Assembly: GCA_003141245.1 (NCBI GenBank)
Contig: PLLE01000043.1
Location: forward strand, 36,542 to 100,541
Length of the DNA stretch: 64,000 nucleotides
Direction of reading: 5' to 3'
Source of the DNA: Chloroflexota bacterium
Lineage (GTDB): Bacteria; Chloroflexota; Limnocylindria; Limnocylindrales; CSP1-4
Position 1 is the stretch's first letter; each line of letters opens with the position of its first letter. The notes under the pieces were generated by a model. It saw only the letters and a list, made by a program, of their open reading frames with translations, made no database searches and was not told the DNA's origin. Shown here piece by piece: positions 1,251-57,514 of this stretch. The position numbers were made by a program, and so were the translations under genes.

Positions 1251-1318
1251 GGCACGCGGTTCGGCGGCGCGGCGGGCGTCCGTCGGAGCCGCGTTCCTCG
1301 GGTCGGTCACGTCGCCTC

Positions 1319-4699: not shown

Positions 4700-6297
4700 C
4701 GCCTCGCCCTCGCCGCCGCGCGGCGTTTGGCCATCGCGGCCGCCGCGGCCCTGAAGGCGGCACCTCGGGCGGCGTAGTCGACGAACATGTCGAAGCTGGC
4801 CGCGGCCGGGCTCAGCAGGACCGTGGCGACGGCCGGCTCCGCCGCGTCGGCCGATCGCGCGTTGGCCGACCGCGCGTTGGCCGCCAGCAATTCCGCGAGC
4901 GCCTCGCGGGCGATCGTGTCGGCCAGCTCCACGGCCTCCTCCAACGTAGCCGCCTGCTCGACGCGCATGACGCCGCTGTCACGGAAGAGGGTCGCGAGCG
5001 CGGGACCGGACTCGCCGATCAGGACGGCCGCATCGGCTCGCTCGGCGGCCACCGGGCCCAGGCCGGAGAGATCGACGCCCTTGTCGCGGCCCCCGGCGAT
5101 CAGCACCAGCGGCCGCGGGAAGGCCTGCAGGGCCGCGATCACCGCGTCGGGCTGCGTCCCCTGCGAGTCGTTGATGAAGCGCACTCCGTCGACGGTCGCG
5201 ACCGGCTCGAGTCGGTGCTCGACGCCGACGAAGGCGGCAGCGGCACGGCGGATGGCGTCCGGCGAGATGCCGAACAGCAGCGCGACCGCGACGGCGGCAA
5301 GGGCATTGGAGACGTTGTGATCGCCGGGGATCGCGAGCTCCGCCAGGGGCAGGATCCGGCCGCCCGGCCCCACCTCCGCCGCACCGCCGCCGGCCAGGGC
5401 CAGCCGCTCCACGCCCGCAGCCACGATCCAGCCATCCTCCACGCCCAGACCGCCTGGTAGCGGCCGGTCGCGCCGATATGCCACGACCGGAGCCACTCCC
5501 AATGCCCCGTACGCGGCCACGATCGGGTCCTCCGCGTTCAGGACGAGCGCTCCCGCCGGATCGACAAGTTCAGCCAGGCGCCGCTTCACTGCCCGGTACG
5601 CCTCGAGCGTCCCGTGGCGGTCCAGGTGATCGGAGGTGACGTTTGTGTAGACGGCGACCGTCGTCCCGTGCGAGAGCGTCGGCAGCTGCAGCTCGGAGAG
5701 CTCGATGACGACCCGATCTTCGGGCGTCAGCTCGGTCAGCCGCTCCACGAGTGGGATCCCGACGTTGCCGCCCAGGATAGCGGGGTGGGCCGGATCGGCG
5801 GCCAGCAGCGCCGCCGTCAGCGACGAGGTCGTGGTCTTGCCCTTGGTCCCGGTGACGCCGATCGTCGGGCAGGGGCACATTCGCAGCACCAGATCGGGCT
5901 CGCTGACCAGGGCGGGCGCGCTCCCGGGATCGACTCGATGGGCCGCCACCAGCGCGGCCAGCGCGGCCCGAAGGCGAGGTTCGGCCGTGGGGAAGTCGGG
6001 GTTGATGCTCGGCGAAGTCGCCACCAGGTCGGCCGATGCCCACGCGCTCGCCGGGTCGACCGCCGGCCCCAGGGCCAGCTCGATCGGCCGGCCGCCAAGG
6101 GCCGCGATCGCCTGCGCGAGCTCGCCCGCGGATCGGCCGTCGTAGATCGTCACGCGTGCGCCCGCGTCGGCGAAGAAGCGCGCCATCGCGATCCCGCTTC
6201 GCGCCAGGCCTAGGACGGTGACCGACCGTCCGCCGAGCGCGCCGTCGCGGACTCCCGCCGCGGTCAGCCGGTCGAGTTCGACGATGCGTCGCACCAT
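4696..6297 (-). CDS. murD: UDP-N-acetylmuramoylalanine--D-glutamate ligase
   Basis: Mur ligase motifs GVTGTKGKTTT and NVTSDHLDRHG; Rossmann N-domain (VTVLGLARSG). Confidence 0.85.
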   Translation of the reverse strand: MVRRIVELDRLTAAGVRDGALGGRSVTVLGLARSGIAMARFFADAGARVTIYDGRSAGELAQAIAALGGRPIELALGPAVDPASAWASADLVATSPSINPDFPTAEPRLRAALAALVAAHRVDPGSAPALVSEPDLVLRMCPCPTIGVTGTKGKTTTSSLTAALLAADPAHPAILGGNVGIPLVERLTELTPEDRVVIELSELQLPTLSHGTTVAVYTNVTSDHLDRHGTLEAYRAVKRRLAELVDPAGALVLNAEDPIVAAYGALGVAPVVAYRRDRPLPGGLGVEDGWIVAAGVERLALAGGGAAEVGPGGRILPLAELAIPGDHNVSNALAAVAVALLFGISPDAIRRAAAAFVGVEHRLEPVATVDGVRFINDSQGTQPDAVIAALQAFPRPLVLIAGGRDKGVDLSGLGPVAAERADAAVLIGESGPALATLFRDSGVMRVEQAATLEEAVELADTIAREALAELLAANARSANARSADAAEPAVATVLLSPAAASFDMFVDYAARGAAFRAAAAAMAKRRAAARARR

Positions 6298-6304
6298 GGC
6301 CGAC

Positions 6305-7327
6305 CTACTTCGGGATCGAGGAGACGAAGAGCGTCACCCCGAGCAATCCCGCCAGCGCGCTGACGATCCAGAACCGCATCGTCACCTTCTCCTCGTCCCA
6401 GCCGCCCAGCTCGAAGTGATGGTGAAGCGGGGCCATCCGGAAGACCCGCTTGCCGCGGAGCTTGTAGCTGCCGACCTGGATGATGTCGGACGCGGTCTCG
6501 ATCACGAAGATCAGGCCGATGAAGGGCAGGATCATCACCTGGCCGGTGATGAGCGCCACCACGGCCAGCATTCCGCCCAACGAGAGCGCGCCCGAGTCCC
6601 CCATGAAGACCTGGGCGGGGTGGACGTTGAACCACAGGAAGCCGACAATCGCGCCGACGACGATGGCGCACACCAGCGCCAGATTTGGCTGCCCGGGATC
6701 GTTGAGCAGGGCGATCATCAGGTAGCTGATGAAGGCAAAGGCGAGCGTGCCGCCGGCCAGCCCGTCGAGTCCGTCGGTCAGGTTCACGCCGTTGCTGCAG
6801 CCGACGATCGCCGCCACGGCGACGACGATGAAGAAGATCCCGCCCAGTTCCACGTTCCGATCGAGGAGCGGCACGAAGATCGTCGAGGTGAACTCGACGT
6901 CGCCGACGAACGGGACGCGGACGCCGTTGAAGCCGAAGTGGTTCTGGACGTAGATGGCCACGCCGATCGCAACGACCGTCTGCCAGACGATCTTGTGGCG
7001 GCCCCGCAGGCCGTATCCGGTTCGGGCGTTGAGGAAGTCGTCCAGCGCACCGAGAGCGCCGACGAGCGCCAGCACGGCGAGCGGCGAGTAGGTCGAGGCA
7101 TCCATGGCGTCGAACAGATATGCCAGCGACAGGATCACGGCTACGAGGAGCACTCCGCCCATCGTCGGCGTTCCCTGCTTGACCAGGTGCGTCCCCGGCC
7201 CGTCCTCGCGGATCTTCTTGCCCATGCCGATCCAATGAAGCAGCCGGATGTACGGCGGCATCAGGATCACGACGCAGGCGAATGCGAGCAGCAATCCCTG
7301 AATGAACACGACCCCGTGCTCGTTCAA
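6305..7327 (-). CDS. mraY: Phospho-N-acetylmuramoyl-pentapeptide transferase
   Basis: 340 aa membrane protein with MraY motifs (NGVNLTDGLDGLAGG, MGDSGALSLGG). Confidence 0.9.
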   Translation of the reverse strand: MNEHGVVFIQGLLLAFACVVILMPPYIRLLHWIGMGKKIREDGPGTHLVKQGTPTMGGVLLVAVILSLAYLFDAMDASTYSPLAVLALVGALGALDDFLNARTGYGLRGRHKIVWQTVVAIGVAIYVQNHFGFNGVRVPFVGDVEFTSTIFVPLLDRNVELGGIFFIVVAVAAIVGCSNGVNLTDGLDGLAGGTLAFAFISYLMIALLNDPGQPNLALVCAIVVGAIVGFLWFNVHPAQVFMGDSGALSLGGMLAVVALITGQVMILPFIGLIFVIETASDIIQVGSYKLRGKRVFRMAPLHHHFELGGWDEEKVTMRFWIVSALAGLLGVTLFVSSIPK

Positions 7328-8859
7328 CGGTCGTCCTCCACGCCATCGGTCGCCGACAAGTCCAGTCCCGTGTCGGCGCCTGCCCTACCCCCGCGATCCC
7401 CCATCAGCCATTCGACTATCCACTCGAATTCGGCCCCGCGTGAGGCCTTGACCAGTACCACGTCGCCGGGCCGGAGAAGCTTGCGCAGAGCCGCCAGGGC
7501 GGCTTCGCGATCGGCCACCGGCACGACCGCCTCGCCCAGCGAGGCCGCCCCGGCCGCGATGCCGCTCGCTTCTTCGCCCACGACCACCACCACGTCGGCG
7601 AGACCGGCAGCTGCCGAGCCCACCGAGCGATGGCCTCGCTCGTGCGCCTCACCGAGCTCCCGCATGACCCCGAGAACCGCCACGTGGCGGCCCGGAAGCG
7701 ACGCCAGCAGCTCCAGCGCGGCGATCATCGACGTTGGAGAGGCATTGTACGAATCGTCGAGGACGGTCAGGCCGCCGGCGCGCACTATCTGGTCGCGGTG
7801 CGGGGCCTGCCAGCCGCGACGCAGGCCAGCCACGATGAGATCGAGATCCAGCCCCGCTGCCAGACCGACGGCCGCGGCTGCCAGCCCATTGTGGATGCCG
7901 TGCCGGCCCAGGGCCGGAGTGGACGCCGCGATCCGGCCGGTGGGAGAGACCAGCGTGAAGCTCATCCCGTCCAGACCGGCCGACACGACCTCCTCGGCAC
8001 GCACCTCGGCGTCCGCCGCGAAACCGTAGCTCAGGGTCCGGGCTGCGGTGCGACCTCGTATCCGCAGCACCCGCGGATCGTCGGCATTGAGGACCGCAAC
8101 CCCGTCCTCGGGAAGCGCCTCTACCAGCTCGGCCTTGGCCCGCTCCACCGCGTCGATCGAGCCGATGCGCGACAGATGGACCTCGCGCACGGCCGTGACG
8201 ACGCCTATCTTCGGCCGCGCTATCGCCGCCAGCTGCGCGACCTCGCCGCCTACGTACATTCCCATCTCCAGAACCACGGCCTCGTGCTCGGGACCCAAAC
8301 GCAGCACGGTCAGCGGCAGGCCGACTTCATTGTTGGCGTTGCCCTCGCTCTTGAGTGTCACGAAGCGTTCGGCCAGGACGGCGGCGATCGCTTCCTTGGT
8401 GGAGGTCTTGGCGATGCTGCCGGTCACGCCGACCACGAGCGGCGAGAAGCGAGCGCGCCACGCGGCGGCCACGGCATGCAGGCCCAGGAGCGTGTCAGGG
8501 ACGGCCACAATGGTGGGTCCGCCCTCCCCCGCCAGGTCGGCCGTTTCGCTGGGCAGGTCGTTCACGAGAAGGGCCGTCGCGCCGGCGTCGACGGCGGCTC
8601 GAAGGAAGCGGTGGCCGTCGGTTCGCTCCCCCCCCAGCGCCACGAAGAGGTTGCCTGGCCGAACCAGCCGTGAATCGACCGCGCCGCCGCGAATCTGTCG
8701 ATCGGAGGAATGCACCAGTCGGCCGCCTGTCGCGGCGGCAAGCTCGGCCGCGGTCAGGGTCAGTAGCCCCGCGCCGAGCCGAGGCTCCGGTTGGCGGGCG
8801 TCGGTCACCTTGTCAGTGTCGCACAGCCAACGGCGCTCGGTGCGGGACCCTCCCGTCAC
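7324..8859 (-). CDS. murF: UDP-N-acetylmuramoyl-tripeptide--D-alanyl-D-alanine ligase
   Basis: MurF-type motifs GSIAKTSTKE and GNANNEVGLP. The MurE signatures are absent, so this ORF is MurF rather than MurE. Confidence 0.8.
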   Translation of the reverse strand: MTGGSRTERRWLCDTDKVTDARQPEPRLGAGLLTLTAAELAAATGGRLVHSSDRQIRGGAVDSRLVRPGNLFVALGGERTDGHRFLRAAVDAGATALLVNDLPSETADLAGEGGPTIVAVPDTLLGLHAVAAAWRARFSPLVVGVTGSIAKTSTKEAIAAVLAERFVTLKSEGNANNEVGLPLTVLRLGPEHEAVVLEMGMYVGGEVAQLAAIARPKIGVVTAVREVHLSRIGSIDAVERAKAELVEALPEDGVAVLNADDPRVLRIRGRTAARTLSYGFAADAEVRAEEVVSAGLDGMSFTLVSPTGRIAASTPALGRHGIHNGLAAAAVGLAAGLDLDLIVAGLRRGWQAPHRDQIVRAGGLTVLDDSYNASPTSMIAALELLASLPGRHVAVLGVMRELGEAHERGHRSVGSAAAGLADVVVVVGEEASGIAAGAASLGEAVVPVADREAALAALRKLLRPGDVVLVKASRGAEFEWIVEWLMGDRGGRAGADTGLDLSATDGVEDDR

Positions 8860-10694
8860 CCCTGTGGCGTCGATTTCTTGGTCCCGGGCGGCGCCGGGCC
8901 GTCGGGGTTGGGCACGATCGAATGGCTCGTGACGGCATCGGTCGCGATTCGGCGGAACAGCTCGTAGGACTGGACCGGCATGTCGAGCACACCCTGCTTG
9001 ATGACCGTCGGCGTGCCTTCATAGATCACAGCACCGATCACCAGTTCCGGCTTGCTGTGGCCCACCCAGCCGTAGAAGCTGTAGTTGTAGACGTCGACTT
9101 TCCAGCCGCCCTTGCCGCCGTCGAGGCCGGGGTCCCAGATCTGGGCAGTTCCGGTCTTCCCGCCGACGTAGTAGCCGGGGATGTAGGTGCGCTGCGCGTA
9201 GGACGGCACCGCGGTCAGGACATACCCCATCAAGCCAGTCAGGGTGCTCGACAGGCTGGCGCTGATCACGCGCGTGTCGGTCAGGGCGGCGGTCGCACTC
9301 TCGCCCACCTTCGCGTCCACGAGCATCACGTGTGGCGTGACGAGGGTTCCACCGTTCGCCATCGCCGCGTACGCACGCGTCAGCTGCATCGGGGTGACCG
9401 CGACGCCCTGGCCGAACGAGGCGTTGGCGAGGTCGATCTGGCGCCACGGCTCGGCTGTGGGGTCGCGGGCGATGCCGGACGCCTCGCCGGCGAGGTCGAT
9501 GCCGGTCTTCTGGCCGATCCCGTAGCTCTGCCAGGTCTGATACAGAACCTTTGAAGCGGCGTCGGTGTTCTTGCCGAGCCGGAAGGCAGCCTGTGAGACA
9601 CCGACGTTGCGTGACCAGGCCACCATGTAGGCGAAGGTCCTCCAGCCCTTGGCCTTGCGGTCGGCATCGGCGACCTCCTGGCCGCCGGCCAGCTTGAGGA
9701 TGCCGTAGTCGTTGATCTGGGTCGTCAGCGCCGTCGTCTTTGATTGCAGTGCGGCCGAGGCGGTGAGCATCTTGAAGACCGACCCGGGTTCGTAAACCTT
9801 GCTGATGATCGGGTCCGTGAACAGGCCCGGGTCCTCGTTGGCGACCGCCACGTAGGAGTTGGCGTCGTACGACGGGTAGCTCGCCTGTGCGAGGATCTCG
9901 CCGGTCTTTGGATCCATGACCACGGCCGAGACGGTCTTTGCCCTGTCAGCGACCCATGCGGCGAACACCTCCTGCTCGAGCTCGAGCTGGAGGCCGGCGT
10001 CGATCGTGGTCCGGATGTCCTGACCGACGGACCCAGGATCGACGATCTTGGTGCCGGCGGGTCCGAGCACGGTAGGATCGATCTGGACGATCTCGGGGCG
10101 TCCGGCCAGCACCGTGTCGTACTGCTGCTCGAGACCGTACTGCCCGATCCCGGCAGCATTGACGAAGCCGAGCACATGCGCCGCCAGCGACGTTCGGGGC
10201 GCGCCTCCGGCTTGGGGATAGATGCGAACCGGCTCCTGCTCGAAGGTGATGCCGACCAGCCCGCCCTGGCTCTGCTGCGTGAGCATTTCCTGGACGACAT
10301 CGGCATCCACGTCGGTGGCGAGCACGATGTAGTACGCGTCCGTGGCCATTGCCTTGCGGAGTTTGGCGGCGTCTTCGTCGCTCAGGGACAGGTAGTCGAT
10401 CAGGGCGGCGATGGTCCGCGCGCTGTCGGTCGCAGAGAGGTCGTGCGGGTCGCCGACGATACGGTAGCGACAGATGGTCCGGGCAAGAACGATCGTCCCG
10501 GTGCGGTCGTAGATGGCGCCGCGCAGGGCCGGGATGCTCTTCTGATAGGTCGAGTTCTGGGCGGACATGGCCGTGAGTTGCTGGCGTTGCCCGATCTGCC
10601 AGTAGGCAAGACGCATCGCCATGCCGGTCGAGGCGAGGAACACGACGAGCAGGAGCAGGAGGAGGCGGACTCGCGAATCGGTTCGGACGAGCAT
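8856..10694 (-). CDS. ftsI: Penicillin-binding protein 3 / FtsI-type transpeptidase
   Basis: 612 aa with an N-terminal TM helix and a transpeptidase domain (SVFK, SxN and KTGTA motifs). It sits at the ftsI position of the dcw cluster. Confidence 0.85.
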   Translation of the reverse strand: MLVRTDSRVRLLLLLLVVFLASTGMAMRLAYWQIGQRQQLTAMSAQNSTYQKSIPALRGAIYDRTGTIVLARTICRYRIVGDPHDLSATDSARTIAALIDYLSLSDEDAAKLRKAMATDAYYIVLATDVDADVVQEMLTQQSQGGLVGITFEQEPVRIYPQAGGAPRTSLAAHVLGFVNAAGIGQYGLEQQYDTVLAGRPEIVQIDPTVLGPAGTKIVDPGSVGQDIRTTIDAGLQLELEQEVFAAWVADRAKTVSAVVMDPKTGEILAQASYPSYDANSYVAVANEDPGLFTDPIISKVYEPGSVFKMLTASAALQSKTTALTTQINDYGILKLAGGQEVADADRKAKGWRTFAYMVAWSRNVGVSQAAFRLGKNTDAASKVLYQTWQSYGIGQKTGIDLAGEASGIARDPTAEPWRQIDLANASFGQGVAVTPMQLTRAYAAMANGGTLVTPHVMLVDAKVGESATAALTDTRVISASLSSTLTGLMGYVLTAVPSYAQRTYIPGYYVGGKTGTAQIWDPGLDGGKGGWKVDVYNYSFYGWVGHSKPELVIGAVIYEGTPTVIKQGVLDMPVQSYELFRRIATDAVTSHSIVPNPDGPAPPGTKKSTPQG

Positions 10695-10706
10695 CGGTCC
10701 GGCGTC

Positions 10707-11102
10707 CTAACGGGCCGGCAGGACGACCGGCGCGCGCAACTGAGTCAGGCCGTCGGCAATCGCCTGCCTGCGGATGGCGGATTGACGACCGACTCGGTCG
10801 ATGTCGGAGAGGATCTGCTGCCGCTGGTTCTGAAGCTGGATGTACTCGTCATTGAGCTGAGCCATGTCATAGCCGCTGGCCGAGATCCGAACCGTCTGGA
10901 CCAGCGAGAAGAAGCTCAGCAGGAATGCCACCACGATCGCGCCAATGATCATTCCGACCGCGCGCGGACGCCGGTTCGCGCGCATGGCGACGCGAGACCG
11001 GCGGCGCGGAAGCGCCGGCGCCTGGGGGCGGAGGAGGGGGGCCTCCAGGCGCCGGCGAGGAAGGAACGTGGAGCGCGGCCGAGCGCCCTCGTAGACGGCC
11101 AT
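10707..11102 (-). CDS. ftsL: FtsL-like cell division protein (start uncertain)
   Basis: Small protein with one TM helix (IIGAIVVAFLLSFFSLV) followed by a coiled-coil region, located between rsmH and ftsI. Confidence 0.55.
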   Translation of the reverse strand: MAVYEGARPRSTFLPRRRLEAPLLRPQAPALPRRRSRVAMRANRRPRAVGMIIGAIVVAFLLSFFSLVQTVRISASGYDMAQLNDEYIQLQNQRQQILSDIDRVGRQSAIRRQAIADGLTQLRAPVVLPAR

Positions 11103-11208
11103 CTAGTCGATTCCTCGATCGGGGTTCAAGCGCTGCCGGTGGCCATAGCTGCGGCGAAGGCTGGCCTGGTGACTCCTGGTCATCGGTTTCCACCTCCCCG
11201 GTCGGCGG

Positions 11209-12228
11209 TCATGCGGCCACTCGCTCCGCGCCCCGTAGTCGCGCACTTCGGGAACGCGGATTGGACTGGATCTCGGCCTCGCTCGGCGTGCGCGACTTGC
11301 CGAGCGATCGAAGACGCGGTAGTCGACCGCAGACGCAGACAGGGACCTCGGGCGGGCAGACGCAGCCCCGCTGCTCGGTCGCGATGAAGCGCTTGACGAT
11401 GCGGTCCTCCAGGGAGTGGTAGCTCAGGACCACGAGGCGGCCGCCAGGGCGAAGCAACACGAGCGACGCGGCAAGTCCGGCCTCGAGGGCGCCAAGTTCG
11501 TCGTTTACGGCGATCCGGAGGGCCTGGAAGACGCGCGTGGCGGGATGGATCCGTCGGGCCCGCGGCGCCGGGACGGATCGCACCACGAGCGCGGCGAGCT
11601 GCTCGGCCGTCTCAATCGGCGTGGCGCGGCGCGTCTCCACGATCGCCCGCGAGATGCGCCCGGCGAAGGGCTCTTCTCCGTAGCGGCGGAAGAGCGCGGT
11701 CAGTTCGGCGGCGGCCATGGTTGCGAGCAGGTCCGCGGCCGGGCGGCCGCGGCCGGTGTCGAAGCGCATGTCGAGACGCCCACCGGCGCGGAACCCGAAG
11801 CCTCGCTCCACGTCGCCGAGTTGGTAGCTGGACAGCCCGAGGTCCATGAACAGCCCGTCGACCGCCCCGAACCCGGCTTTGGGCGCGACTCGCTCCAGCT
11901 CGTGGAAGTTGGTCTGGCGCAGCACCGCCCGATCGCCGAAACGGGCCAGGCGGCGGCGCCCCCTGGCGATGGCCGCCCCGTCAGCGTCGAGTCCGAGGAG
12001 GCGGCCATCAGGGGCGCACGCCTCCAGGATCCGCTCGGCATGGCCGGCTCCACCGAGGGTGGCGTCGATCTGGAGGCTGTCAGGATGCGGTGCGAGTGTC
12101 TCCAAGACCTCGTCGGCCATCACCGGCAGGTGCCCTACCTCCCGTTCGGCGCCCCCCTCGGGAGAGCCGTCGACGGACTCGCCGTCACGGGCCGACCCGA
12201 GCGGATCCCGGAAGTTCATCTCGTTCAC
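11209..12228 (-). CDS. rsmH: 16S rRNA (cytosine1402-N4)-methyltransferase. The ORF may start internally near ...HLPVMADEVL.
   Basis: SAM-MTase motifs (DATLGGAGH, DLGLSSYQLGD) and position immediately downstream of mraZ. Confidence 0.85.
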   Translation of the reverse strand: MNEMNFRDPLGSARDGESVDGSPEGGAEREVGHLPVMADEVLETLAPHPDSLQIDATLGGAGHAERILEACAPDGRLLGLDADGAAIARGRRRLARFGDRAVLRQTNFHELERVAPKAGFGAVDGLFMDLGLSSYQLGDVERGFGFRAGGRLDMRFDTGRGRPAADLLATMAAAELTALFRRYGEEPFAGRISRAIVETRRATPIETAEQLAALVVRSVPAPRARRIHPATRVFQALRIAVNDELGALEAGLAASLVLLRPGGRLVVLSYHSLEDRIVKRFIATEQRGCVCPPEVPVCVCGRLPRLRSLGKSRTPSEAEIQSNPRSRSARLRGAERVAA

Positions 12229-12657
12229 CTAGATGCCGAGCCCGGTCAGATGGGAAGCGAGCGCATCGGCGGAATTGACCGCCTGCTGCGACTTCTCCCA
12301 TCGACCCGGTTCCCAGATTTCGACGTGATCCCGCGATCCCACCACGACGGCGTCCGATCCAACCCCGGACCAGTCGCGGATGGCCGCGGGCAGCAGGATC
12401 CGACCCTGCTGGTCGCTCTCGACCTCGAAAGCGCCCGAGAAGAGGAAGCGCGAGAAGGCTCTTGCCCTCTCGTCCGAGAGAGGCAGCTTCGCTACCTTCT
12501 CGGCGAGGTCCTCGAATGAGGCCCGCGGGAAGATGGCGGCGCAGCCGTCGACCCAGCGAGCCAGCACGGCGCCCTCGCCGAGAGGCGTACGGAACCGGAC
12601 CGGGATTGCAATCCGGCCCTTGGCGTCCACCGAGTGTCTGTATTCGCCGGTGAACAT
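12229..12657 (-). CDS. mraZ: Transcriptional regulator MraZ
   Basis: 142 aa with MFTGEY...DAKGRI and a second D..GR..LP repeat (duplicated MraZ/SpoVT-AbrB fold). It is the first gene of the dcw cluster. Confidence 0.9.
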   Translation of the reverse strand: MFTGEYRHSVDAKGRIAIPVRFRTPLGEGAVLARWVDGCAAIFPRASFEDLAEKVAKLPLSDERARAFSRFLFSGAFEVESDQQGRILLPAAIRDWSGVGSDAVVVGSRDHVEIWEPGRWEKSQQAVNSADALASHLTGLGI

Positions 12658-15389: not shown

Positions 15390-15770
15390 GTGTGGCGGCG
15401 AGCCGGCCTGTAAGCCGAGTTCTGTACCGCGACTCTCGTCGCGGCGACGATCATCCATCTCTGGCCGCCGGTCACCCGACGGCTCAAGCGGCCGACCCGA
15501 GGACTGGGCAGCGCGACCTCTTCCGTCCGAACGACCGGCTTCCCGAACGCTCGAACCGCGTCCTCCTATTTGGCCTTGCTCCGAGCAGAGTTTGCCGCGT
15601 TTCACCTACCGCTCTCGAGTTGCCCCGAGACCGGCTACGTCTCTGTGGCACTGGTCCTCGCCTCACGGCGGACGGGCATTACCCGCTACCCTGCGCTGAG
15701 GAGCTCGGACTTTCCTCGCATGCCGGCCGAAACCGAACACGCGCGACCGTCCGACCGGCTCGCCGATGTC
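15390..15770 (-). ncRNA. rnpB: RNase P RNA, bacterial type A
   Basis: The minus strand reads ...GAGGAAAGUCCGAGCUCC...GGGUAAUGCCC...AGAGAUGGAUGAUCGUCGCC...ACAGAACUCGGCUUACAGGCCGGCUCGCCGCC. The P4 strands (AGGAAAGUCCG / ACAGAAC.CGGCUUA) and the CUAGAUGGAUG-like motif match the RNase P consensus. The 5' GGCGAGCCGG and 3' GGCCGGCUCGCC can pair as P1. The six-frame track covers this locus with spurious ORFs (15392..16399 and others). Confidence 0.85.
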
Positions 15771-25565: not shown

Positions 25566-27269
25566 TCAGACGGTGATCAGCTCGTGGTGCTCACCCCAGA
25601 CCTCGCGCAGTCGGTCGCAGATCTCGCCGACCGTGGCATACGCCTTCACCGCCTCGATCATGGGCGGCAGCAGGTTCTCCTCGCCACGGGCGCATTCCTC
25701 GAGCCGGCGCAGGGCCGCCTTCCATGCCACGGCATCGCGCTCCGCCCTTACCTTCTGGACGCGGGCCACCTGGCGGAGCTCGCCCTCCGGATCGATGCGC
25801 TGAAGCGGCGGCGTGGACGTTTCCTCGTCGCGGAACTTGTTGACGCCGACGACCACCTTCCGGCCGCTCTCCACAGCTCGCTGAACCTGGTATGACGACT
25901 CCTGGATCTGGCGCTGCTGGTAGCCGGCCTCGATTGCGGCGAGGGTGCCTCCGAGCGCGTCGATCTCGGCCAGGTAGTCGTTGGCGGCCTTCTCGAGGTC
26001 GTTCGTCAAAGACTCGACGTAGTAGCTGCCGGCGAGCGGGTCCGGCGTCTCGGTCACTCCCGACTCGTAGGCCAGGATCTGCTGGGTGCGAAGCGCGAGA
26101 CGCGCGGCCTCCGCTGTGGGCAGCGCCAGGGCTTCGTCGCGAGAGTTGGTGTGGAGGCTCTGGGCCCCCCCCAGGACCGCGGCCAGAGCCTGGACCGTGG
26201 TCCGGACCACGTTGTTGTCGATCGACTGGGCCGTGAGCGACGAGCCGGCGGTCTGGACGTGATAACGGCACGCCATCGAACGGGTGTTCGTGGCGCCGAA
26301 ACGCTCCTTCACGATCCGAGCCCACATCCGGCGTGCGGCTCGGAACTTGGCCACTTCCTCGAAGAGCTCACTCCACGAGGCGAAGAAGAAGCTCAGCCGG
26401 TCGGCGAATTCGTCGATGTCGAGGCCACGGCTGAGGGCAGCCTCGACGTACGCGATGCCATCGGCGAGGGTGAAGGCCAACTCCTGGGCGGCGGTGGCTC
26501 CGGCCTCACGCATGTGGTAGCCGCTGATGCTGATGGTATTCCAGCGCGGCAGCTCCTTCGAGCAGAACTCGAAGATGTCAGTCACGAGCCGCATCGAGGG
26601 CCGCGGCGGGAAGATGTACGTTCCCCGGGCGATGTACTCCTTGAGGATGTCGTTCTGGGTAGTGCCGCTGACCTGGCCTCGGGCAACGCCCTGTTTCTCG
26701 GCCGCGGCGACGTAGAGGGCCAACAGGACCGCGGCCGATGCGTTTATGGTCATGGACGTGCTGACCGTGCCGAGGGGCAGCCCGTCGAGGAGAACCTCCA
26801 TGTCGGCCAGCGAGTTGACCGGCACGCCCACCCGTCCGACCTCGCCCTCGGACTGGGGGGCGTCGGAGTCGTAGCCCAGCTGGGTCGGGAGATCGAAGGC
26901 GACCGAAAGGCCGGTCTGACCCTGCTCGAGGAGATAGCGGAACCGGCGGTTGGTCTCCTCGGCCGTGGAGAATCCCGCGTACTGGCGCATGGTCCACAGG
27001 CGTCCCCGATACATGGTCGGCTGGACGCCGCGGGTGTAGGGGTACTCGCCCGGGCGGCCCAGGTCGCGATCCTGGTCGAGGCCGGCCACGTCGGCCGGGG
27101 TGTAGAGATCCTTGACCTCGACGCCGGAGGTGGTCAGGAAGCGCTCCTGGCGTTCGGGCGAGCGGGCGAGCGCCTTCGCCCGCGTGGTGGAGCGCCACCG
27201 CTCCCGGCCCGGATCGGCCGCCGATCCGTCGTTCGCTCCGGCCTTGGGTGTCCCATGGTCCTCCGACAC
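25566..27269 (-). CDS. Methylmalonyl-CoA mutase, catalytic (TIM-barrel) domain only; probable GTG start at 27269 preceded by GGAGGA
   Basis: [50 protein letters not shown] and [12 protein letters not shown] match the MutB/Sbm substrate-binding domain. The protein ends just after ...VNKFRDEE and contains no B12-binding DxHxxG domain. Confidence 0.8.
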
Positions 27270-27556
27270 TTGCCGCTTCCTCCAGCAATGCCCAGCCGCC
27301 GATCGCACACACGTACCGGTGGATGATGGCACGGACCCGGGTCGGCCCGCCAGTCTATTCCCCGAAGGACGCCTGGGTGACGGTCGTTCGTGCCGCTTGG
27401 GTGAAGGCACGGTACATCTGGGGCCTCCGTCAAGAGCCCTCCCCTAGCCCGGCTGTCTTTGCGCAAGGACGATCAACTGTGATCGCGGCGCCGATCTGGC
27501 TTGGCGCGAGGTCCGCATTGCGCATAACTCGTTCGGGGGTGGATTAGATCCGCTGC

Positions 27557-27599
27557 TTATCCACAGAATCGGTGAACAACTCCAAAGTCGTGTGGATAA
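27557..27599. promoter_or_regulatory. Pair of perfect consensus DnaA boxes in inverted orientation, about 110 nt upstream of parA
   Basis: TTATCCACA at 27557-27565 and TGTGGATAA at 27591-27599 are separated by 25 bp. They lie in a 440-bp intergenic region that is comparatively AT-rich for this genome. Confidence 0.6.
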
Positions 27600-27710
27600 G
27601 CTCGGCCGCGGGCGACGGGCTGCGGTAGCATCTTGACACCACTCCGCCTTCCCGGCCCCTCAGAATCGAACCGTCGCGAGACCCAGCGCTCAGTCCGAGG
27701 TGACACTCAG

Positions 27711-28478
27711 GTGGCCATTGTTATCGCGATCGCAAACCAGAAGGGTGGCGTCGGGAAGACGACCACCGCCATCAATCTGGCAGGCGCGCTCGCGGAGCAT
27801 GACCTGCGCGTGTTGTGCGTGGACATGGATGCCCAGGCCAACCTGACGGTCGGGCTCGGGATCAACCTGACGACCGTCGAGAACTCGATGGCGAACGTGC
27901 TGGGTGATCCAAGGATTAGTCTGCGGGAGATCGTGATCTCGACCGAGACTCCCAACATAGACGTCGCCCCTGCCACCCTCGATCTTGCCTCGACAGAGGT
28001 CGACCTCCTGAGCACGATCGGCCGCGAGTACGCCCTCGCCGAGGCAATCGACGACTGGGCTCGGGGCCACTACGACTACATCCTCATCGACTGCCCACCG
28101 ACGCTGGGCCTGCTCACGATCAACGGCCTGGTGGCGGCCAACGGGGTGATCATCCCCGTTCAAACCCAGTACTACGCCCTCAAGGGCCTGGCGGCCCTGG
28201 TCAAGGTCATCGCCACGATCCGCTCCAAGCTGAACAAGGACCTGCGGGTCATGGGTCTGCTTCCTACCTTCCACGACCCCCGCACCGTACTGGGCCGTGA
28301 GATGCTCGAAGAGATGCGGGAGCACACGGAGAACCACGTCTTCCAGACGATCATCCGTAACGCCGTCAAGCTCGGCGAGGCCCCTCTCACCGGCCGCCCC
28401 ATCACCGAGTACGCCAGCGGCTCGGATGCCGCCAACAACTTCCGAGAGCTCGCCAAGGAGGTAATCGCACTTGGCTAG
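27711..28478 (+). CDS. parA: Chromosome partitioning ATPase ParA/Soj (probable GTG start at 27711)
   Basis: Deviant Walker A IAIANQKGGVGKTTTAINLA, ParA signature LLIDCPPTLGLLT, and an 8-nt overlap with parB. Confidence 0.9.
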   Translation: MAIVIAIANQKGGVGKTTTAINLAGALAEHDLRVLCVDMDAQANLTVGLGINLTTVENSMANVLGDPRISLREIVISTETPNIDVAPATLDLASTEVDLLSTIGREYALAEAIDDWARGHYDYILIDCPPTLGLLTINGLVAANGVIIPVQTQYYALKGLAALVKVIATIRSKLNKDLRVMGLLPTFHDPRTVLGREMLEEMREHTENHVFQTIIRNAVKLGEAPLTGRPITEYASGSDAANNFRELAKEVIALG

Positions 28479-29490
28479 GCCAGATTTCCGGGCCGCCGCC
28501 TCTGCTCGCCTGAACGAGGAGCGAGGCCAGGAGCTCTCACACAATGTCCTCAGCCTCTTGCACGCCGATGAGACGACCGTCATCCGGCCGTCCGCGGTCC
28601 GGAACATCCCCGTCGACCGGGTAGATCCGAACCCAAACCAGCCGCGCCTGGCGATGGACCAAACGAACCTGGACGAGCTCACCTCGTCCGTCAAGCAACA
28701 CGGCGTCCTCCAGCCGATCCTGGTCCGTCCGTTGCCTGCCGGTCGCTACCAGATAGTCGCGGGCGAGCGTCGCTGGCGCGCCGCCACAGCCGCGGGCCTC
28801 AAAGAGATTCCCGCCCTGATCGAGGAGATCGACGACGACACGGCCCTCGAGATCGCAATCATCGAGAACCTCCAGCGCGAGGACCTCTCCCCGATCGACG
28901 AGGCTCAGATCTACGACAAGATGATTCGCCAGCACGGCTACAGCATCCGCAAGCTGGCCCAGAAACTCGGCAAGGACAAGGGCTATCTGGAGAACCGCCT
29001 CCGCCTGGCCGATGCCCCGCCGGAGGTACGCGAGCTGGTGTCTGTGCGCAAAGACACCCTCTCCCACGCCTACGAACTGCTCAAGGTCGCGGACCCTCGG
29101 AAGCGTAAGAAGCTGGCCGACATGGTCGCCCGCGGCGAGCTCTCGTTAGTCAAGCTGCGCGAACAGATTGGCGAGACGCCCCGGGCCAAGCGCGCCGGCA
29201 AGACCGACTCCACCGAGGCCAGCCCCGCGGGCGCCGTCGAGGACACGACCGACGTCGAAGCCAACCGGTTGGGGAGCGGCCCCAAACGTTTGCTCACCGA
29301 CGACTCGCTGATTGACGTCCGGGCTCAGCTCGCCGACGCCATTAGCGAGCTGATCTCCGTCATCCAGTCGGATGTGATGAAGTCGATCGACGACACCGAC
29401 CGCCAGAACCTGGCCAAGTTCCTGATGATCTCCCGCGTCCGGCTCGAGAACGCCACCACGCTCGTCCGGCGTGGCAGCTCCGATCACTGA
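28471..29490 (+). CDS. parB: Chromosome partitioning protein ParB/Spo0J
   Basis: ParB box motifs (LQPILVRP, IVAGERRWRAA, IIENLQREDLSPIDEA) and a C-terminal HTH and dimerisation region. Confidence 0.9.
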   Translation: MARPDFRAAASARLNEERGQELSHNVLSLLHADETTVIRPSAVRNIPVDRVDPNPNQPRLAMDQTNLDELTSSVKQHGVLQPILVRPLPAGRYQIVAGERRWRAATAAGLKEIPALIEEIDDDTALEIAIIENLQREDLSPIDEAQIYDKMIRQHGYSIRKLAQKLGKDKGYLENRLRLADAPPEVRELVSVRKDTLSHAYELLKVADPRKRKKLADMVARGELSLVKLREQIGETPRAKRAGKTDSTEASPAGAVEDTTDVEANRLGSGPKRLLTDDSLIDVRAQLADAISELISVIQSDVMKSIDDTDRQNLAKFLMISRVRLENATTLVRRGSSDH

Positions 29491-30532: not shown

Positions 30533-30898
30533 TCAGACGTAGACGATCTCGTCGAAGTTGGCCACCAGGTACTCGATCAGGCGCGCCCTGGCATCGGGGA
30601 GCGCCGCCCGAAGCCCGCCCACGAGGCTGTGGAGTGAGATCGCCGGGACCATCAGATGGCCCTGGGCGTCGAAGCCGACCGTTTGGGGAGCGCCACCGCC
30701 ACGAGCGAATACCCGGCGCAGTTCCGCCTCGTCGAGGTGAGCGGTCCGCTGCACGTCGGTTAGGACCTTGATCACGCCCCGCCGCATGGCGACATCCCTC
30801 ATCAACTCCTTCGACCAGGAATCGAGCTGTTCGTCGGTCTGTTCGCCGAGTCTCTTGCGGTACTCCGTCGGATTGGCGGCAAGGCTCGTAGCGCCCAC
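30533..30898 (-). CDS. Hypothetical protein (121 aa), co-directional between the PlsC-like and UbiA genes
   Basis: ORF with consistent GC3 bias and no recognisable family motif; its 3' end overlaps the extended UbiA reading frame. Confidence 0.4.
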   Translation of the reverse strand: MGATSLAANPTEYRKRLGEQTDEQLDSWSKELMRDVAMRRGVIKVLTDVQRTAHLDEAELRRVFARGGGAPQTVGFDAQGHLMVPAISLHSLVGGLRAALPDARARLIEYLVANFDEIVYV

Positions 30899-31981: not shown

Positions 31982-32413
31982 ATGTTTGAGAGCGATCGTA
32001 CCGTGATTGAGAACATCTCGGGGGTTGACTTGGTGATCGGCAGGTCAACCGTTCGACGCCGAATCCTCGCCCTCCTGATGGCCGGGCCGGAGCGGCGTTT
32101 GCACCTGCGCGAGATCCAGCGTCGTGCCACCACCAGCCCGGGCACCGCCAGCCGAGAACTTGGGCGACTCGTCGCCTCGGGCCTCGTCGAGCGCGAGGCC
32201 GAGGGGCACCAGGTCTACTTCCGCACCATCACCTCGCCCTATGCGACGATGATCCGGACCCTGCTCGGGGTCCCCGCCGCGCCGGCGTCGGCAGCCGAAC
32301 CGATCGCCCCGCCTCCTGCCGAACCCGAGACCGAGGGCGAGGGCGAGTCTCGTCAGTTGATGCTGTTCACCAGCGCGCCGCTACGCGACGATTGCCGCGA
32401 CCGATGGGCCTGA
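31982..32413 (+). CDS. Winged-helix transcriptional regulator (ArsR/MarR-like HTH) with a Pro/Ala-rich C-terminal tail
   Basis: ILALLMAGPERRLHLREIQRRATTSPGTASRELGRLVASGLVERE is an HTH plus wing; the stop overlaps the tag start region. Confidence 0.55.
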   Translation: MFESDRTVIENISGVDLVIGRSTVRRRILALLMAGPERRLHLREIQRRATTSPGTASRELGRLVASGLVEREAEGHQVYFRTITSPYATMIRTLLGVPAAPASAAEPIAPPPAEPETEGEGESRQLMLFTSAPLRDDCRDRWA

Positions 32414-56668: not shown

Positions 56669-57514
56669 CTAGCCTGCGAGTTCGCCGCGAATCACCGTCA
56701 CCGCCTGACCGCCCAGGATCGCCCGATCGCCTGCGACGCGAACCCGCACGACGCCGCCTCGGGTGGAGGCCTGATAGCCGACCATCTCGTCCCGACCCAG
56801 GCGGGGCGCCCAGAACGGGCCGAGCGCGCAATGCGCCGAACCGGTCACCGGATCTTCCGGAATCCCCCACGCGGGCACGAAAGTCCGCGAAACGAAGTCG
56901 GCTCCCGCGGCCACCGGCGGCAGTCCCCTCGCCGCTCCCCCGACGGCGGCCGTCACGATGATCATGTCGCCCAGGCGCGCCACCGCCGCGAAGTCCGGCT
57001 CGATTCGCCCCACCGCAGCCACACTCTCGGCCAGCAGCACCCAGTCGCGGCCCCCGCTCGCGGCCGCGCCGACCTCAATGCCCAGGGCCGCGCCGAGCAC
57101 CTCCGCCTCCGGCCAGCGGGCCGCCTCTCGCTCCACCGGCTCGAATCGATTCGCCGGGAAGTCCATCTCGATCCAACCGTCCGGAGCCTGCCACGCCCGC
57201 AGCCGGCCACTGGCCGTGGCGAACTCGATCGTCCGGCCGGCTGGCACGACCCCGCGCTCCCAGAGGACGTGCGCGGCCGCCAGCGTGGCATGCCCGCACA
57301 GCCGGACTTCGACCGTCGGCGTGAACCAGCGCAGGTCGAACGACGACTCTCCACGCTCCACCAGGAACGCGGTCTCGGCGAGATTCATCTCCGCCGCGAT
57401 CGCCTGCATCCACTTCGGATCGCCCGGCGAGGCCAGCAAACAGACCCCAGCTGGATTGCCGGCGTATTGGCGAACCGTGAAGGCGTCGACCTGGAGCAAC
57501 GGAATCGACATCAC
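56669..57514 (-). CDS. phzF: PhzF-family phenazine-biosynthesis-like isomerase
   Basis: MMSIPLLQVDAFTVRQYAGNPAGVCLL...AETAFL and FTP..EVRLCGHATLAAAH motifs (DAP-epimerase-like fold). Confidence 0.8.
   Translation of the reverse strand: MMSIPLLQVDAFTVRQYAGNPAGVCLLASPGDPKWMQAIAAEMNLAETAFLVERGESSFDLRWFTPTVEVRLCGHATLAAAHVLWERGVVPAGRTIEFATASGRLRAWQAPDGWIEMDFPANRFEPVEREAARWPEAEVLGAALGIEVGAAASGGRDWVLLAESVAAVGRIEPDFAAVARLGDMIIVTAAVGGAARGLPPVAAGADFVSRTFVPAWGIPEDPVTGSAHCALGPFWAPRLGRDEMVGYQASTRGGVVRVRVAGDRAILGGQAVTVIRGELAG

What the first reader, a model, noticed from the sequence alone, without database searches (positions are those of the whole stretch)
27540..27610. Two perfect inverted DnaA boxes directly upstream of parAB, with no dnaA or dnaN nearby
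TTATCCACA and its exact reverse complement TGTGGATAA lie 25 bp apart in the intergenic region between the divergently oriented methylmalonyl-CoA mutase and parA genes. In a ~70% GC genome this AT-rich 9-mer is rare, and two perfect copies within 45 bp is unlikely by chance. The parAB operon normally sits next to oriC, and gene orientation in the window switches around this point: minus-strand genes to the left, parAB on the plus strand to the right. This could be part of a non-canonical or bipartite replication origin, or a DnaA-box cluster analogous to datA, DARS or DnaA-controlled soj promoters.
Basis: seen in the sequence. Interest (0 to 1): 0.6.

Follow-up and report, generated by a model that had tools for sequence, protein, structure and literature searches.

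The report
Conserved DnaA-box trio upstream of parAB
Two perfect binding sites for the replication initiator DnaA, with a weaker third site between them, form a conserved module just upstream of the chromosome-partition genes parAB in uncultured soil and peat Chloroflexota; it most likely lets the initiator tune partition-gene expression and is not a replication origin.

Summary
TTATCCACA (27557-27565) and TGTGGATAA (27591-27599) lie 25 nt apart, between a methylmalonyl-CoA mutase gene and parA. They are the only perfect DnaA boxes in 64 kb (0.02 expected by chance).

They belong to a larger module: box, 5 nt, GGTGAACAA (a weak inverted box), 11 nt, box. The module is present in all 22 relatives retrieved by protein similarity and in 100 metagenome stretches, always 140-197 bp upstream of parA. 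Both spacers keep their length while their sequence varies. The two strong boxes vary mainly at position 3 (A/T/G), where DnaA-box consensus sequences differ between bacteria.

The module sits 26-31 nt upstream of a conserved -10-like TAGNNT with no conserved -35.

Nothing supports an origin:
- no AT-rich unwinding element and no DnaA-trios
- GC-skew change of the wrong sign
- no dnaA or dnaN in 1.25 Mb of window plus related loci
- one relative has lost the boxes but kept the promoter

The best reading is a DnaA-dependent control module for the parAB promoter, as shown experimentally in Pseudomonas aeruginosa in 2026. The head-to-head pair 5 bp apart also matches half of the E. coli DARS core.

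Side finding: the ParB here has changed DNA-contact residues, there is no canonical parS, and a conserved palindrome is a candidate new parS.

The parts
27557..27565 (+). DnaA box 1, TTATCCACA (perfect consensus here; the conserved core is positions 2-9)
   Evidence: In 22 protein-retrieved relatives, positions 2-9 read TATCCACA in 18, TATCCACC in 2, TTTCCACA in 1 and TGTCCACA in 1. Position 1 is free.
27566..27570 (.). 5-nt spacer (GAATC): length fixed, sequence free across the wider family
   Evidence: GAATC 14, GATTC 3, GAAAC 2, AATTC 1, AGGAT 1, ACCAT 1, always 5 nt. It is 6 nt in the deep-clade locus L129.
27571..27579 (-). Middle 9-mer GGTGAACAA (TTGTTCACC on the minus strand): a weak inverted DnaA-box-like site
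   Evidence: Invariant in 22 of 22 unbiased loci and 87 of 87 motif-retrieved loci. In the deep clade it reads GGTGGACGG or TGTGGACGG, so the shared core is GTGNAC, the complement of GTNCAC in the DnaA box. It has 2 mismatches to TTWTNCACA.
27580..27590 (.). 11-nt spacer: length fixed, last 8-10 nt variable
   Evidence: 18 different 11-mers among 22 loci. It is 12 nt in L127.
27591..27599 (-). DnaA box 2, TGTGGATAA (TTATCCACA on the minus strand)
   Evidence: It reads TGTGGATAA in 20 of 22 unbiased and 82 of 87 motif-retrieved sequences. The variants are TGTGGAAAA (5) and TGTGGACAA (2), which differ only at box position 3. It was never part of the search pattern.
27626..27631 (+). -10-like hexamer TAGCAT of the presumed parAB promoter (within the conserved TGCGGTAGCAT); no conserved -35
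   Evidence: Conserved as TAG[C/G/A][A/C/T]T in all clades, 26-31 nt after box 2. It is retained in L128, which lacks the boxes. Its promoter function is inferred; the consensus scan found no sigma-70-type site.
27697..27702 (+). Ribosome-binding site GAGGTG for parA
   Evidence: Conserved as CGAGGTGA in all clades, 8 nt before the start codon.
27711..28478 (+). parA (255 aa, Soj-type deviant Walker A ATPase)
   Evidence: Pfam AAA_31, CbiA, ParA and MipZ. The upstream in-frame stretch is non-coding, because its indels in relatives are not multiples of 3.
28471..29490 (+). parB (339 aa) with non-canonical DNA-contact residues
   Evidence: Pfam ParB_N and HTH_ParB. Aligned with Caulobacter ParB 6t1f, the contact positions named in PMC7383237 read I162, D172, K173, S201 and Y204.
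27455..27470 (.). 16-bp palindrome GTCTTTGCGCAAGGAC (family consensus GTCTTTGCGCAAAGAC): candidate lineage-specific parS or ParB operator
29040..29055 (.). Second copy of the palindrome, inside parB (GTCTGTGCGCAAAGAC), held on rare codons
   Evidence: TCT is 5% of Ser codons, AAA 10% of Lys codons. It is a perfect palindrome using Leu TTG (5.7% of Leu codons) in L118-L126.
25566..27269 (-). Methylmalonyl-CoA mutase, the divergent upstream neighbour (not tied to the module)
   Evidence: Pfam MM_CoA_mutase. In other clades the immediate neighbour is a carboxyltransferase, yet the module stays with parA.
27538..27546 (-). Extra weak box GGTGGATTA (TAATCCACC): not a conserved part of the module
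   Evidence: A GTGGAT motif at this position occurs in only 17 of 47 near-clade and 5 of 53 other distinct sequences.

Best explanation
This is a three-site DnaA-binding module that belongs to the parAB promoter of a class-level lineage of Chloroflexota (Candidatus Limnocylindrales and relatives). It is not a replication origin. Two consensus DnaA boxes in inverted orientation flank a weaker inverted box, at fixed spacings of 5 and 11 bp. The module ends 26-31 bp upstream of a conserved -10 element (TAGNNT) that has no conserved -35. Proposed mechanism: DnaA occupies the two strong boxes and fills the weak middle site cooperatively. Bound at roughly -40 to -85, it then modulates RNA polymerase at a promoter without a -35, more likely activating than repressing. 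parA and parB output would therefore follow the level or nucleotide state of the initiator, coupling the supply of segregation proteins to replication initiation. What is shown: the sequence, its conservation, its linkage to parA, its variation pattern and the absence of origin features. What is inferred: DnaA binding, the promoter assignment and the direction of the effect.
For: - Chance: both perfect boxes are the only ones in 64 kb, with 0.02 expected.
- Conservation: the module is present in 22 of 22 relatives retrieved by ParA or ParB similarity, i.e. without regard to the motif.
- Linkage: in 100 metagenome stretches it is always 140-197 bp upstream of parA. It follows parA when the upstream gene changes from mutase to carboxyltransferase.
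- Variation pattern: box 2 varies only at position 3 (A, T or G). Box 1 also varies at position 3, and additionally at position 1 and, in 2 loci, position 9. Spacer sequences change freely while their lengths stay at 5 and 11 nt. This is the pattern expected of fixed protein-contacted 9-mers with the TT[A/T/G]TNCACA consensus.
- Specificity: in 920 kb of related loci the strict consensus occurs 132 times inside the module and twice elsewhere.
- Promoter: the -10-like element is conserved in all clades at 26-31 nt from box 2.
- Loss in one relative: L128 lost the boxes but kept the -10, as expected of an accessory regulatory element.
- Rival readings excluded: the RNA fold is no better than shuffles (z = 0.30) and there is no Rfam hit.
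- Precedent: in Pseudomonas aeruginosa, DnaA boxes upstream of the p1 promoter bind DnaA in EMSA and raise gidAB-parAB expression (PMC13438810).
Against: - DnaA binding has not been measured, and the DnaA of this lineage was not seen.
- The promoter elements are inferred from conservation only, and the sigma-70 consensus scan found nothing.
- The distance from box 2 to the -10 varies by 5 bp, about half a helical turn. That is awkward for strict face-of-helix activation.
- The complete invariance of the middle 9-mer, a poor DnaA box, is not fully explained and could reflect a second protein.
- The position of oriC and dnaA on the replicon is unknown, so the module could still lie close to the origin.
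Confidence: 0.6

Rival explanations
1. DARS-like site. The head-to-head pair (box 1 and the middle box, 5 bp apart) together with the co-oriented box 2 assembles DnaA so as to change its nucleotide state or availability. E. coli DARS1 and DARS2 do this by promoting ADP release. Any effect on parAB transcription would be secondary or additional.
For: - DARS1 read from MG1655 is TTATCCACT-5 bp-TGTGGATAA-3 bp-TGTGTATTA. DARS2 is TTATTCACC-5 bp-TGTGGATAG-3 bp-TGTGAAGAA.
- Here the order and orientation are the same (-> 5 bp <- ... <-). The 5-nt length is kept while its sequence varies.
- The invariant 23-mer equals box + 5 nt + inverted 9-mer.
- DARS1 itself lies in a promoter region (bioD-uvrB).
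Against: - The second spacing is 11-12 bp, not 3 bp.
- The middle box is the weakest site, whereas DARS1 box II is the full consensus.
- L129 has a 6-nt first spacer.
- A box with at most 2 mismatches at some nearby spacing is not improbable by chance (my estimate is about 15% if spacing and orientation are free).
- I found no evidence for DARS function outside E. coli and its relatives.
Confidence: 0.12
2. The site, or at least the invariant middle 9-mer GGTGAACAA, is bound by a different sequence-specific protein, such as an unknown regulator of parAB. The resemblance to DnaA boxes would then be partial coincidence, or the site would be shared between DnaA and a partner.
For: - The middle 9-mer is more strictly conserved than either true box, although it is a poor match to the DnaA consensus.
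- In the closest clades the 5-nt spacer is also invariant.
- Nothing is known about transcription factors in this lineage.
Against: - Boxes 1 and 2 are perfect matches to a 9-mer recognised by a universal, essential protein.
- Their only common variation is at the known degenerate position 3.
- In the deep clade the middle element becomes more DnaA-box-like (TGTGGACGG).
- The 15-mer GAATCGGTGAACAAC occurs nowhere else in the window or in 920 kb of loci, so there is no sign of a regulon for another factor.
Confidence: 0.15
3. It is part of the chromosomal replication origin (a minimal or bipartite oriC next to parAB).
For: - parAB and parS-type sites usually lie near oriC (established knowledge).
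- Two perfect boxes are very rare in this GC-rich DNA.
- The real origin of this lineage has not been located.
Against: - No AT-rich stretch beyond the boxes themselves, and no DnaA-trio runs.
- Only 2 strong boxes.
- With gene strand controlled, the skew change at 27.5 kb has the opposite sign to an origin (t = -2.3 to -2.7), and cumulative skew shows a local maximum.
- No dnaA, dnaN, recF, gyrB, rpmH, rnpA, yidC, jag or rsmG in the window.
- No DnaA or DnaN homologue in 1.25 Mb of window plus loci.
- The flanks are GC-rich and variable in length in relatives.
- L128, on a 1.41-Mb contig, lacks the boxes at this locus.
Confidence: 0.04
4. The inverted repeat forms an RNA hairpin (a leader or small RNA), or the region encodes a leader peptide or an N-terminal extension of ParA.
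For: The 11-nt arms can pair. The closest relatives have a conserved 5' leader.
Against: - The fold energy is no better than shuffled sequence (z = 0.30), and there is no Rfam match at E <= 1.
- The change of box 2 to TGTGGAAAA or TGTGGACAA is not compensated in box 1.
- The boxes lie upstream of the conserved -10, so they are probably not transcribed.
- Indels in the leader are not multiples of 3.
Confidence: 0.02

Closest known systems
DnaA-box-dependent p1 promoter of the Pseudomonas aeruginosa gidAB-parAB operon (oriCII region), PMC13438810
   Same: DnaA boxes immediately upstream of the promoter that drives parA-parB. In that system DnaA binds the boxes in EMSA, and its overproduction raises promoter activity only when the boxes are present. 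It links the initiator to expression of the partition genes.
   Different: There the site has five boxes (6-10) that are part of an origin-type region, and the operon starts with gidA-gidB. Here there are two strong boxes and one weak box at fixed spacing, the operon is parA-parB alone, it sits among propionate and TCA-cycle genes with no origin genes nearby, and the organism belongs to a different phylum. Nothing has been tested experimentally here.
E. coli DARS1 and DARS2 cores (DnaA-reactivating sequences), PMC6868365
   Same: Three DnaA boxes, the first two oppositely oriented with a 5-bp gap and the third co-oriented with the second. As in DARS, the first box can deviate at its last base (TATCCACC in L122 and L123). 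DARS1 also lies in a promoter region (bioD-uvrB).
   Different: The spacing between the second and third boxes is 11-12 bp here and 3 bp in DARS. The strongest box is in the middle in DARS1 and at the ends here. Nucleotide-exchange activity is unknown here.
Other promoters regulated by DnaA as a transcription factor (E. coli dnaA, nrdAB, uvrB; Bacillus subtilis dnaA, sda and other DnaA-box clusters; PMC4447404, PMC3245932, PMC6015884)
   Same: A few consensus boxes outside oriC, in an intergenic promoter region, and conserved among relatives.
   Different: B. subtilis clusters hold many boxes and also titrate DnaA. The rigid three-site geometry and its exclusive association with parAB are particular to this lineage. 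The comparison with those systems rests on the abstracts listed and on my own knowledge, not on sequence analysis done here.
Canonical chromosomal parS / ParB (for the side finding), PMC7383237
   Same: A 16-bp palindrome in or beside parB, in 1-3 copies per locus. The ParB has the N-terminal GERRWRAA motif, which I identify from my own knowledge as the CTP-binding motif, and an HTH domain.
   Different: The sequence is GTCTTTGCGCAAAGAC, not TGTTNCACGTGAAACA. Five of the ten parS-contacting residues are changed, including R173 and G201, which that paper describes as absolutely conserved in ParB orthologues.

Membership tests
DnaA box (DnaA domain IV binding site) | 9-mer matching TT(A/T)TNCACA | tested here: met
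   Two perfect matches at 27557-65 and 27591-99. The consensus is as quoted in PMC6868365.
DnaA box (DnaA domain IV binding site) | Across relatives, variation is confined to the degenerate positions of the consensus | tested here: met
   Box 2 reads TTATCCACA, TTTTCCACA or TTGTCCACA only. Box 1 varies at position 3 (A/T/G), at position 1 and, in 2 loci, at position 9.
DnaA box (DnaA domain IV binding site) | Specific binding by DnaA | not testable with these tools
   Needs EMSA, footprinting or ChIP.
Bacterial replication origin (oriC) | AT-rich DNA-unwinding element next to the boxes | tested here: not met
   The most AT-rich 20-30 nt in the spacer are the boxes themselves (60% AT). Relatives are the same.
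Bacterial replication origin (oriC) | DnaA-trio repeats beside a box | tested here: not met
   No run of even 2 consecutive YTW triplets on either strand of 27270-27710.
Bacterial replication origin (oriC) | Cluster of several (typically 5 or more) DnaA boxes | tested here: not met
   Two strong boxes, one conserved weak box, and 1-2 non-conserved weak boxes.
Bacterial replication origin (oriC) | GC-skew sign change (minimum of cumulative skew) | tested here: not met
   There is a local maximum, not a minimum, within the window. The side effect is negative after controlling for gene strand. The whole replicon was not available.
Bacterial replication origin (oriC) | Linkage to dnaA, dnaN or other origin-region genes | tested here: not met
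   None in the window. tblastn was negative on 1.25 Mb, with validated queries.
Bacterial replication origin (oriC) | Present in every related genome at the orthologous place | tested here: not met
   L128 has the same gene order and the same -10 but no boxes.
DARS (DnaA-reactivating sequence) core | Boxes I and II oppositely oriented with a 5-bp space | tested here: met
   Box 1, 5 nt, then an inverted weak box in 22 of 22 loci, with spacer length kept while its sequence varies. It is 6 nt in L129. Reference geometry.
DARS (DnaA-reactivating sequence) core | Box III co-oriented with box II at the conserved short spacing (3 bp in DARS1 and DARS2) | tested here: not met
   The orientation is the same, but the spacing is 11 bp (12 in L127).
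DARS (DnaA-reactivating sequence) core | Promotes ADP release from ADP-DnaA | not testable with these tools
   A biochemical assay is needed.
datA or DnaA-box titration cluster | Four or more boxes over a few hundred bp (with an IHF site in datA) | tested here: not met
   Only the triad is present.
DnaA-regulated promoter | Boxes within or just upstream of a promoter | tested here: inconclusive
   A conserved -10-like TAGNNT lies 26-31 nt downstream of box 2 in all clades. However, the promoter is inferred, and the consensus scan found none.
DnaA-regulated promoter | Transcription changes with DnaA level or box mutation | not testable with these tools
   Needs reporter or transcript assays.
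Canonical chromosomal parS | TGTTNCACGTGAAACA-type 16-mer near parB | tested here: not met
   No match with up to 3 mismatches in the window. There is one 3-mismatch hit in all of L001-L015 and none in L127-L129.
Canonical ParB (parS-specific) | R173 and G201 (Caulobacter numbering), plus Q162, S172 and R204, at the DNA interface | tested here: not met
   The residues are K173, S201, I162, D172 and Y204. They are invariant in about 60 distinct relatives and are shared by about 40 of the 150 nearest 50%-identity representatives.

The most novel reading that the evidence does not exclude
The triad is a DARS-type DnaA-remodelling site built into the partition locus. A head-to-head DnaA pair 5 bp apart would reset or sense the initiator's nucleotide state at the promoter of parAB. 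In the same lineage, ParB has been re-specified to a new centromere sequence (GTCTTTGCGCAAAGAC). This would make a physically integrated initiation-segregation control node, in a phylum where neither DARS-like elements nor non-canonical chromosomal parS are known.
Probability: 0.12. Interest if true: 0.8.

Novelty: new variant of a known kind. Interest (0 to 1): 0.5.

Why it matters
DnaA acting on partition genes has so far been shown experimentally in one proteobacterium, where the boxes are part of an origin-type region. Here the same link appears in an uncultured class of Chloroflexota. It takes the form of a compact module with rigid spacing, and it stays with parAB even though no origin genes are nearby. 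That argues that coupling initiator status to partition-gene supply is selected for in its own right and is not a by-product of lying next to oriC.

The fixed geometry (-> 5 bp <- 11 bp <-) gives a defined 43-bp substrate for testing how DnaA assembles on head-to-head sites outside E. coli.

The accompanying ParB, with K173, S201 and Y204 and a candidate new parS, contradicts the stated invariance of the parS-recognition residues. It offers a natural example of a change in centromere specificity on what appears to be a main chromosome.

Tried and rejected
- **RNA element:** the fold of 27530-27712 is no better than shuffles, and there is no Rfam hit even at E <= 1.
- **Coding extension or leader peptide:** the in-frame TTG at 27633 is not a start, because indels in relatives are not multiples of 3.
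- **Sigma-70 promoter or terminator scan:** nothing found. The perfect TTGACA at 27633-27638 is not conserved.
- **Canonical parS:** absent.
- **DnaA-trios and unwinding element:** absent.
- **Third box at 27538-27546, and a 1-mismatch box at 27519-27527:** not conserved.
- **Second CAGAATCG copy and the conserved 5' leader:** seen in the close clade only, not in other clades.
- **The 15-mer next to box 1 as the motif of another regulon:** it occurs nowhere else in the window or in 920 kb of loci.
- **MarR (31982-32413) as the binder of the palindrome:** there is no copy of the palindrome near its own gene. This is not excluded.
- **Locating dnaA in this lineage:** not possible.
- **Look-up of the PhzF-like protein** (to test conservation of the 57.56-kb boxes): failed, because the called start codon differs.
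- **Two literature searches returned nothing useful**.
Full report
**1. The observation**

TTATCCACA lies at 27557-27565 on the plus strand. Its exact reverse complement TGTGGATAA lies at 27591-27599, 25 nt further on. The complementary arms extend to 11 nt. These are the only perfect DnaA boxes in the 64-kb window. Dinucleotide-preserving shuffles give 0.02 per window, and none of 100 shuffles reaches two. With the relaxed consensus TTWTNCACA and one mismatch allowed, the whole window holds seven sites. Three are in this spacer and two are adjacent at 57.56 kb.

**2. Context**

The boxes sit in a 441-bp spacer. On one side is a methylmalonyl-CoA mutase gene (minus strand, start 27269). On the other is parA (plus strand, GTG at 27711), followed by parB.

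The rest of the window holds:
- the dcw cell-wall and division cluster
- RNase P RNA
- succinate dehydrogenase, isocitrate dehydrogenase and succinyl-CoA ligase
- prenyltransferases and transporters
- F420 genes

There is no dnaA, dnaN, recF, gyrB, rpmH, rnpA, yidC, jag or rsmG. A tblastn with E. coli DnaA and DnaN found nothing in the window or in 129 fetched loci, 1.25 Mb in all.

The window is part of a 123-kb metagenome contig. Its relatives are MAGs labelled Chloroflexi/Chloroflexota, several of them Candidatus Limnocylindrales.

**3. What is conserved**

Fourteen genomes found through ParB (72-87% identity) have the same gene order. In all 13 whose sequence reaches the spacer, box 2 is perfect and is the only such 9-mer in about 20 kb.

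The alignment shows much more than two 9-mers:
- an invariant 23-mer, TATCCACAGAATCGGTGAACAAC
- about ten variable bases
- the invariant TGTGGATAA
- a variable GC-rich stretch
- a conserved TGCGGTAGCAT
- a leader and the ribosome-binding site

An exact-match scan of metagenome contigs with the 23-mer returned 100 stretches. Wherever the contig is long enough, parA starts 140-197 bp downstream, and the motif never appears in any other context. These stretches include a clade with only about 67% ParA identity, where the upstream neighbour is a carboxyltransferase and not the mutase. The element therefore belongs to parAB.

**4. Unbiased sampling and the real architecture**

The 23-mer scan forces that sequence to be invariant. 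I therefore also retrieved loci by protein similarity alone, with two further searches and twelve contexts. All 22 distinct protein-retrieved loci that reach the spacer carry the module. They show what is actually constrained.
- Box 1, positions 2-9: TATCCACA (18), TATCCACC (2), TTTCCACA (1), TGTCCACA (1).
- First spacer: always 5 nt, with free sequence (GAATC, GATTC, GAAAC, AATTC, AGGAT, ACCAT).
- Middle 9-mer: GGTGAACAA in all 22.
- Second spacer: always 11 nt, with 18 different sequences.
- Box 2: TGTGGATAA (20) or TGTGGACAA (2). The motif-retrieved set adds TGTGGAAAA (5 of 87).

So the '23-mer' is two fixed 9-mers held 5 bp apart. Box 2 varies only at box position 3 (A, T or G). Box 1 varies there too, and also at its first base and, in two loci, its last. 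Position 3 is where the E. coli-type (TTATCCACA), TTTTCCACA and high-GC (TTGTCCACA) consensus forms differ; that comparison is from my own knowledge.

The middle 9-mer read on the other strand is TTGTTCACC, a weak box. In a deeper ParB clade it becomes GGTGGACGG (L127) or TGTGGACGG (L129). The core shared by all clades is GTGNAC, the complement of GTNCAC inside the DnaA box.

In 920 kb of related loci, the strict consensus occurs 132 times in the module and twice elsewhere. This pattern is what DnaA sites should show. It is hard to reconcile with an RNA hairpin: the changes in box 2 are not compensated in box 1, the fold has z = 0.30, and there is no Rfam match. It is also hard to reconcile with a coding sequence, because indels in the leader are not multiples of three.

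**5. Not an origin**

- The spacer has no AT-rich stretch other than the boxes themselves, and no run of even two DnaA-trio-type triplets.
- The flanks in relatives are GC-rich and variable in length.
- Cumulative GC skew has a local maximum near 27-28 kb, not a minimum. A per-gene regression that separates gene strand from position gives a side effect of the sign opposite to an origin (t = -2.3 to -2.7).
- No origin-linked gene is nearby in any of the loci.
- In L128, on a 1.41-Mb contig, the orthologous spacer has no DnaA box at all but keeps the -10 element. An accessory regulatory module can be lost in this way, but a chromosome's origin cannot.

The true origin of the lineage could not be located with the tools, so closeness to oriC on the replicon scale remains open.

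**6. How it probably works**

Only five non-coding features are conserved across clades:
- a palindrome next to a minus-strand -10 (TATCAT or TATGAT) for the divergent gene
- the triad
- a plus-strand TAG[C/G/A]NT hexamer
- the parA ribosome-binding site
- nothing resembling a -35 element

The hexamer lies 26-31 nt after box 2. If it is the -10, box 2 is centred near -45 and the head-to-head pair near -65 to -80, all in DNA that is not transcribed.

I infer that DnaA bound to the strong outer boxes recruits a third protomer to the weak middle site, and that the complex modulates a promoter without a -35. I think activation is more likely than repression, for two reasons: there is no -35 element, and upstream DnaA boxes raise gidAB-parAB p1 activity in Pseudomonas aeruginosa, where DnaA binds them in EMSA (PMC13438810). 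The 5-bp scatter in the distance from box 2 to the -10 is a caveat. The sign of regulation is a guess.

**7. Comparison with DARS**

I read the E. coli DARS cores directly from MG1655:
- DARS1: TTATCCACT-5 bp-TGTGGATAA-3 bp-TGTGTATTA
- DARS2: TTATTCACC-5 bp-TGTGGATAG-3 bp-TGTGAAGAA

The module here has the same order and orientation, and the same 5-bp first gap, whose length is conserved while its sequence is not. However, the second gap is 11-12 bp, not 3 bp, and the weakest box is in the middle where DARS1 has its strongest. One defining feature is met and one is not. I do not file it as a DARS, but I keep a DARS-like function as the most novel reading not excluded (about 0.12).

**8. Side finding: ParB and a candidate new parS**

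No canonical parS occurs in the window or in the loci checked. Instead, a 16-bp palindrome, GTCTTTGCGCAAAGAC, occurs twice in the window (0.12 expected), once upstream of parA (27455-27470) and once inside parB (29040-29055).

- The internal copy is conserved in most relatives, on rare codons: TCT is 5% of Ser, AAA 10% of Lys and TTG 5.7% of Leu.
- A sub-clade that lacks the internal copy often has two or three upstream copies.

I aligned the ParB here with Caulobacter ParB and compared the ten DNA-contact positions listed in PMC7383237. Five differ: I162, D172, K173, S201 and Y204. Two of these replace R173 and G201, which that paper calls absolutely conserved in extant ParB orthologues. The variant motif (GKDKGYLENRLRL ... 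SHAYEL) is invariant in about 60 distinct relatives. It is shared by about 40 of the 150 nearest 50%-identity cluster representatives, and the canonical residues take over below about 47% identity.

The palindrome is therefore a good candidate for a re-specified centromere or ParB operator. Three caveats apply:
- Two deep-clade loci show no copy within the region scanned.
- In some clades the palindrome lies just downstream of the divergent gene's -10, so it could act as an operator there.
- I could not check whether these genomes also carry a second, canonical parABS.

**9. Verdict**

The origin interpretation fails every local test I could apply. The best-supported reading is a conserved DnaA-box triad that controls, or is at least tied to, the parAB promoter (confidence 0.6). 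It is a new variant of a known kind of element. Interest is moderate, raised by the rigid DARS-like geometry and by the unusual ParB and palindrome next to it.

Noticed in passing
window 27455-27470 and 29040-29055; parB 28471-29490: A 16-bp palindrome (consensus GTCTTTGCGCAAAGAC) flanks parA. One copy is held inside parB on rare codons. The ParB has five changed parS-contact residues (I162, D172, K173, S201, Y204), and no canonical parS is present. This is a candidate re-specified chromosomal ParB-parS pair, conserved across the lineage.
   Followed up: partly
window 57562-57581 (minus strand): Two tandem near-consensus DnaA boxes, TTGTCCACA and TTTTCCACA, 2 bp apart. They lie in the divergent spacer between a PhzF-like gene (56669-57514) and an EAL-domain gene (57747-58949). 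These are the same two box variants seen at box 2 in other clades, so this may be a second DnaA-controlled promoter. Conservation could not be tested.
   Followed up: partly
window 30533-30898 (minus strand): A 121-aa ORF with no Pfam match is syntenic with parAB in every clade examined. It appears as a 121-123-aa gene of unknown function just downstream of parB (or of the UbiA-family gene) in L118-L129. It may be a functional partner of the partition locus.
   Followed up: no
L128 about 9030-9060 (spacer upstream of parA at 9238): In the one relative that lacks the DnaA-box triad, the equivalent place carries two tandem copies of GTCTCCACGC (TGTCTCCACGCGTCTCCACGC). The -10-like TAGATT is retained.
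   Followed up: no
window 27640-27700: The parA 5' leader is conserved (about 80%) among the closest relatives and holds a second CAGAATCG copy (27661-27668). It is non-coding by its indel pattern and is not conserved in the more distant clades.
   Followed up: partly
window 25566-27269 and loci L118-L129: parAB is always next to propionate-pathway genes (methylmalonyl-CoA mutase, epimerase-like glyoxalase, carboxyltransferase, biotin carboxylase) throughout the lineage. This is an unusual and stable neighbourhood for chromosomal partition genes.
   Followed up: partly
window 15395-15762 (minus strand): Bacterial RNase P RNA class A (193.6 bits). Together with the dcw cluster at 105-12657 and the TCA-cycle genes, it indicates that the window is chromosomal and not from a plasmid.
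   Followed up: yes
L124 11025-11972: A second gene with only a ParB_N domain (315 aa) lies about 4 kb downstream of parB in one relative.
   Followed up: no
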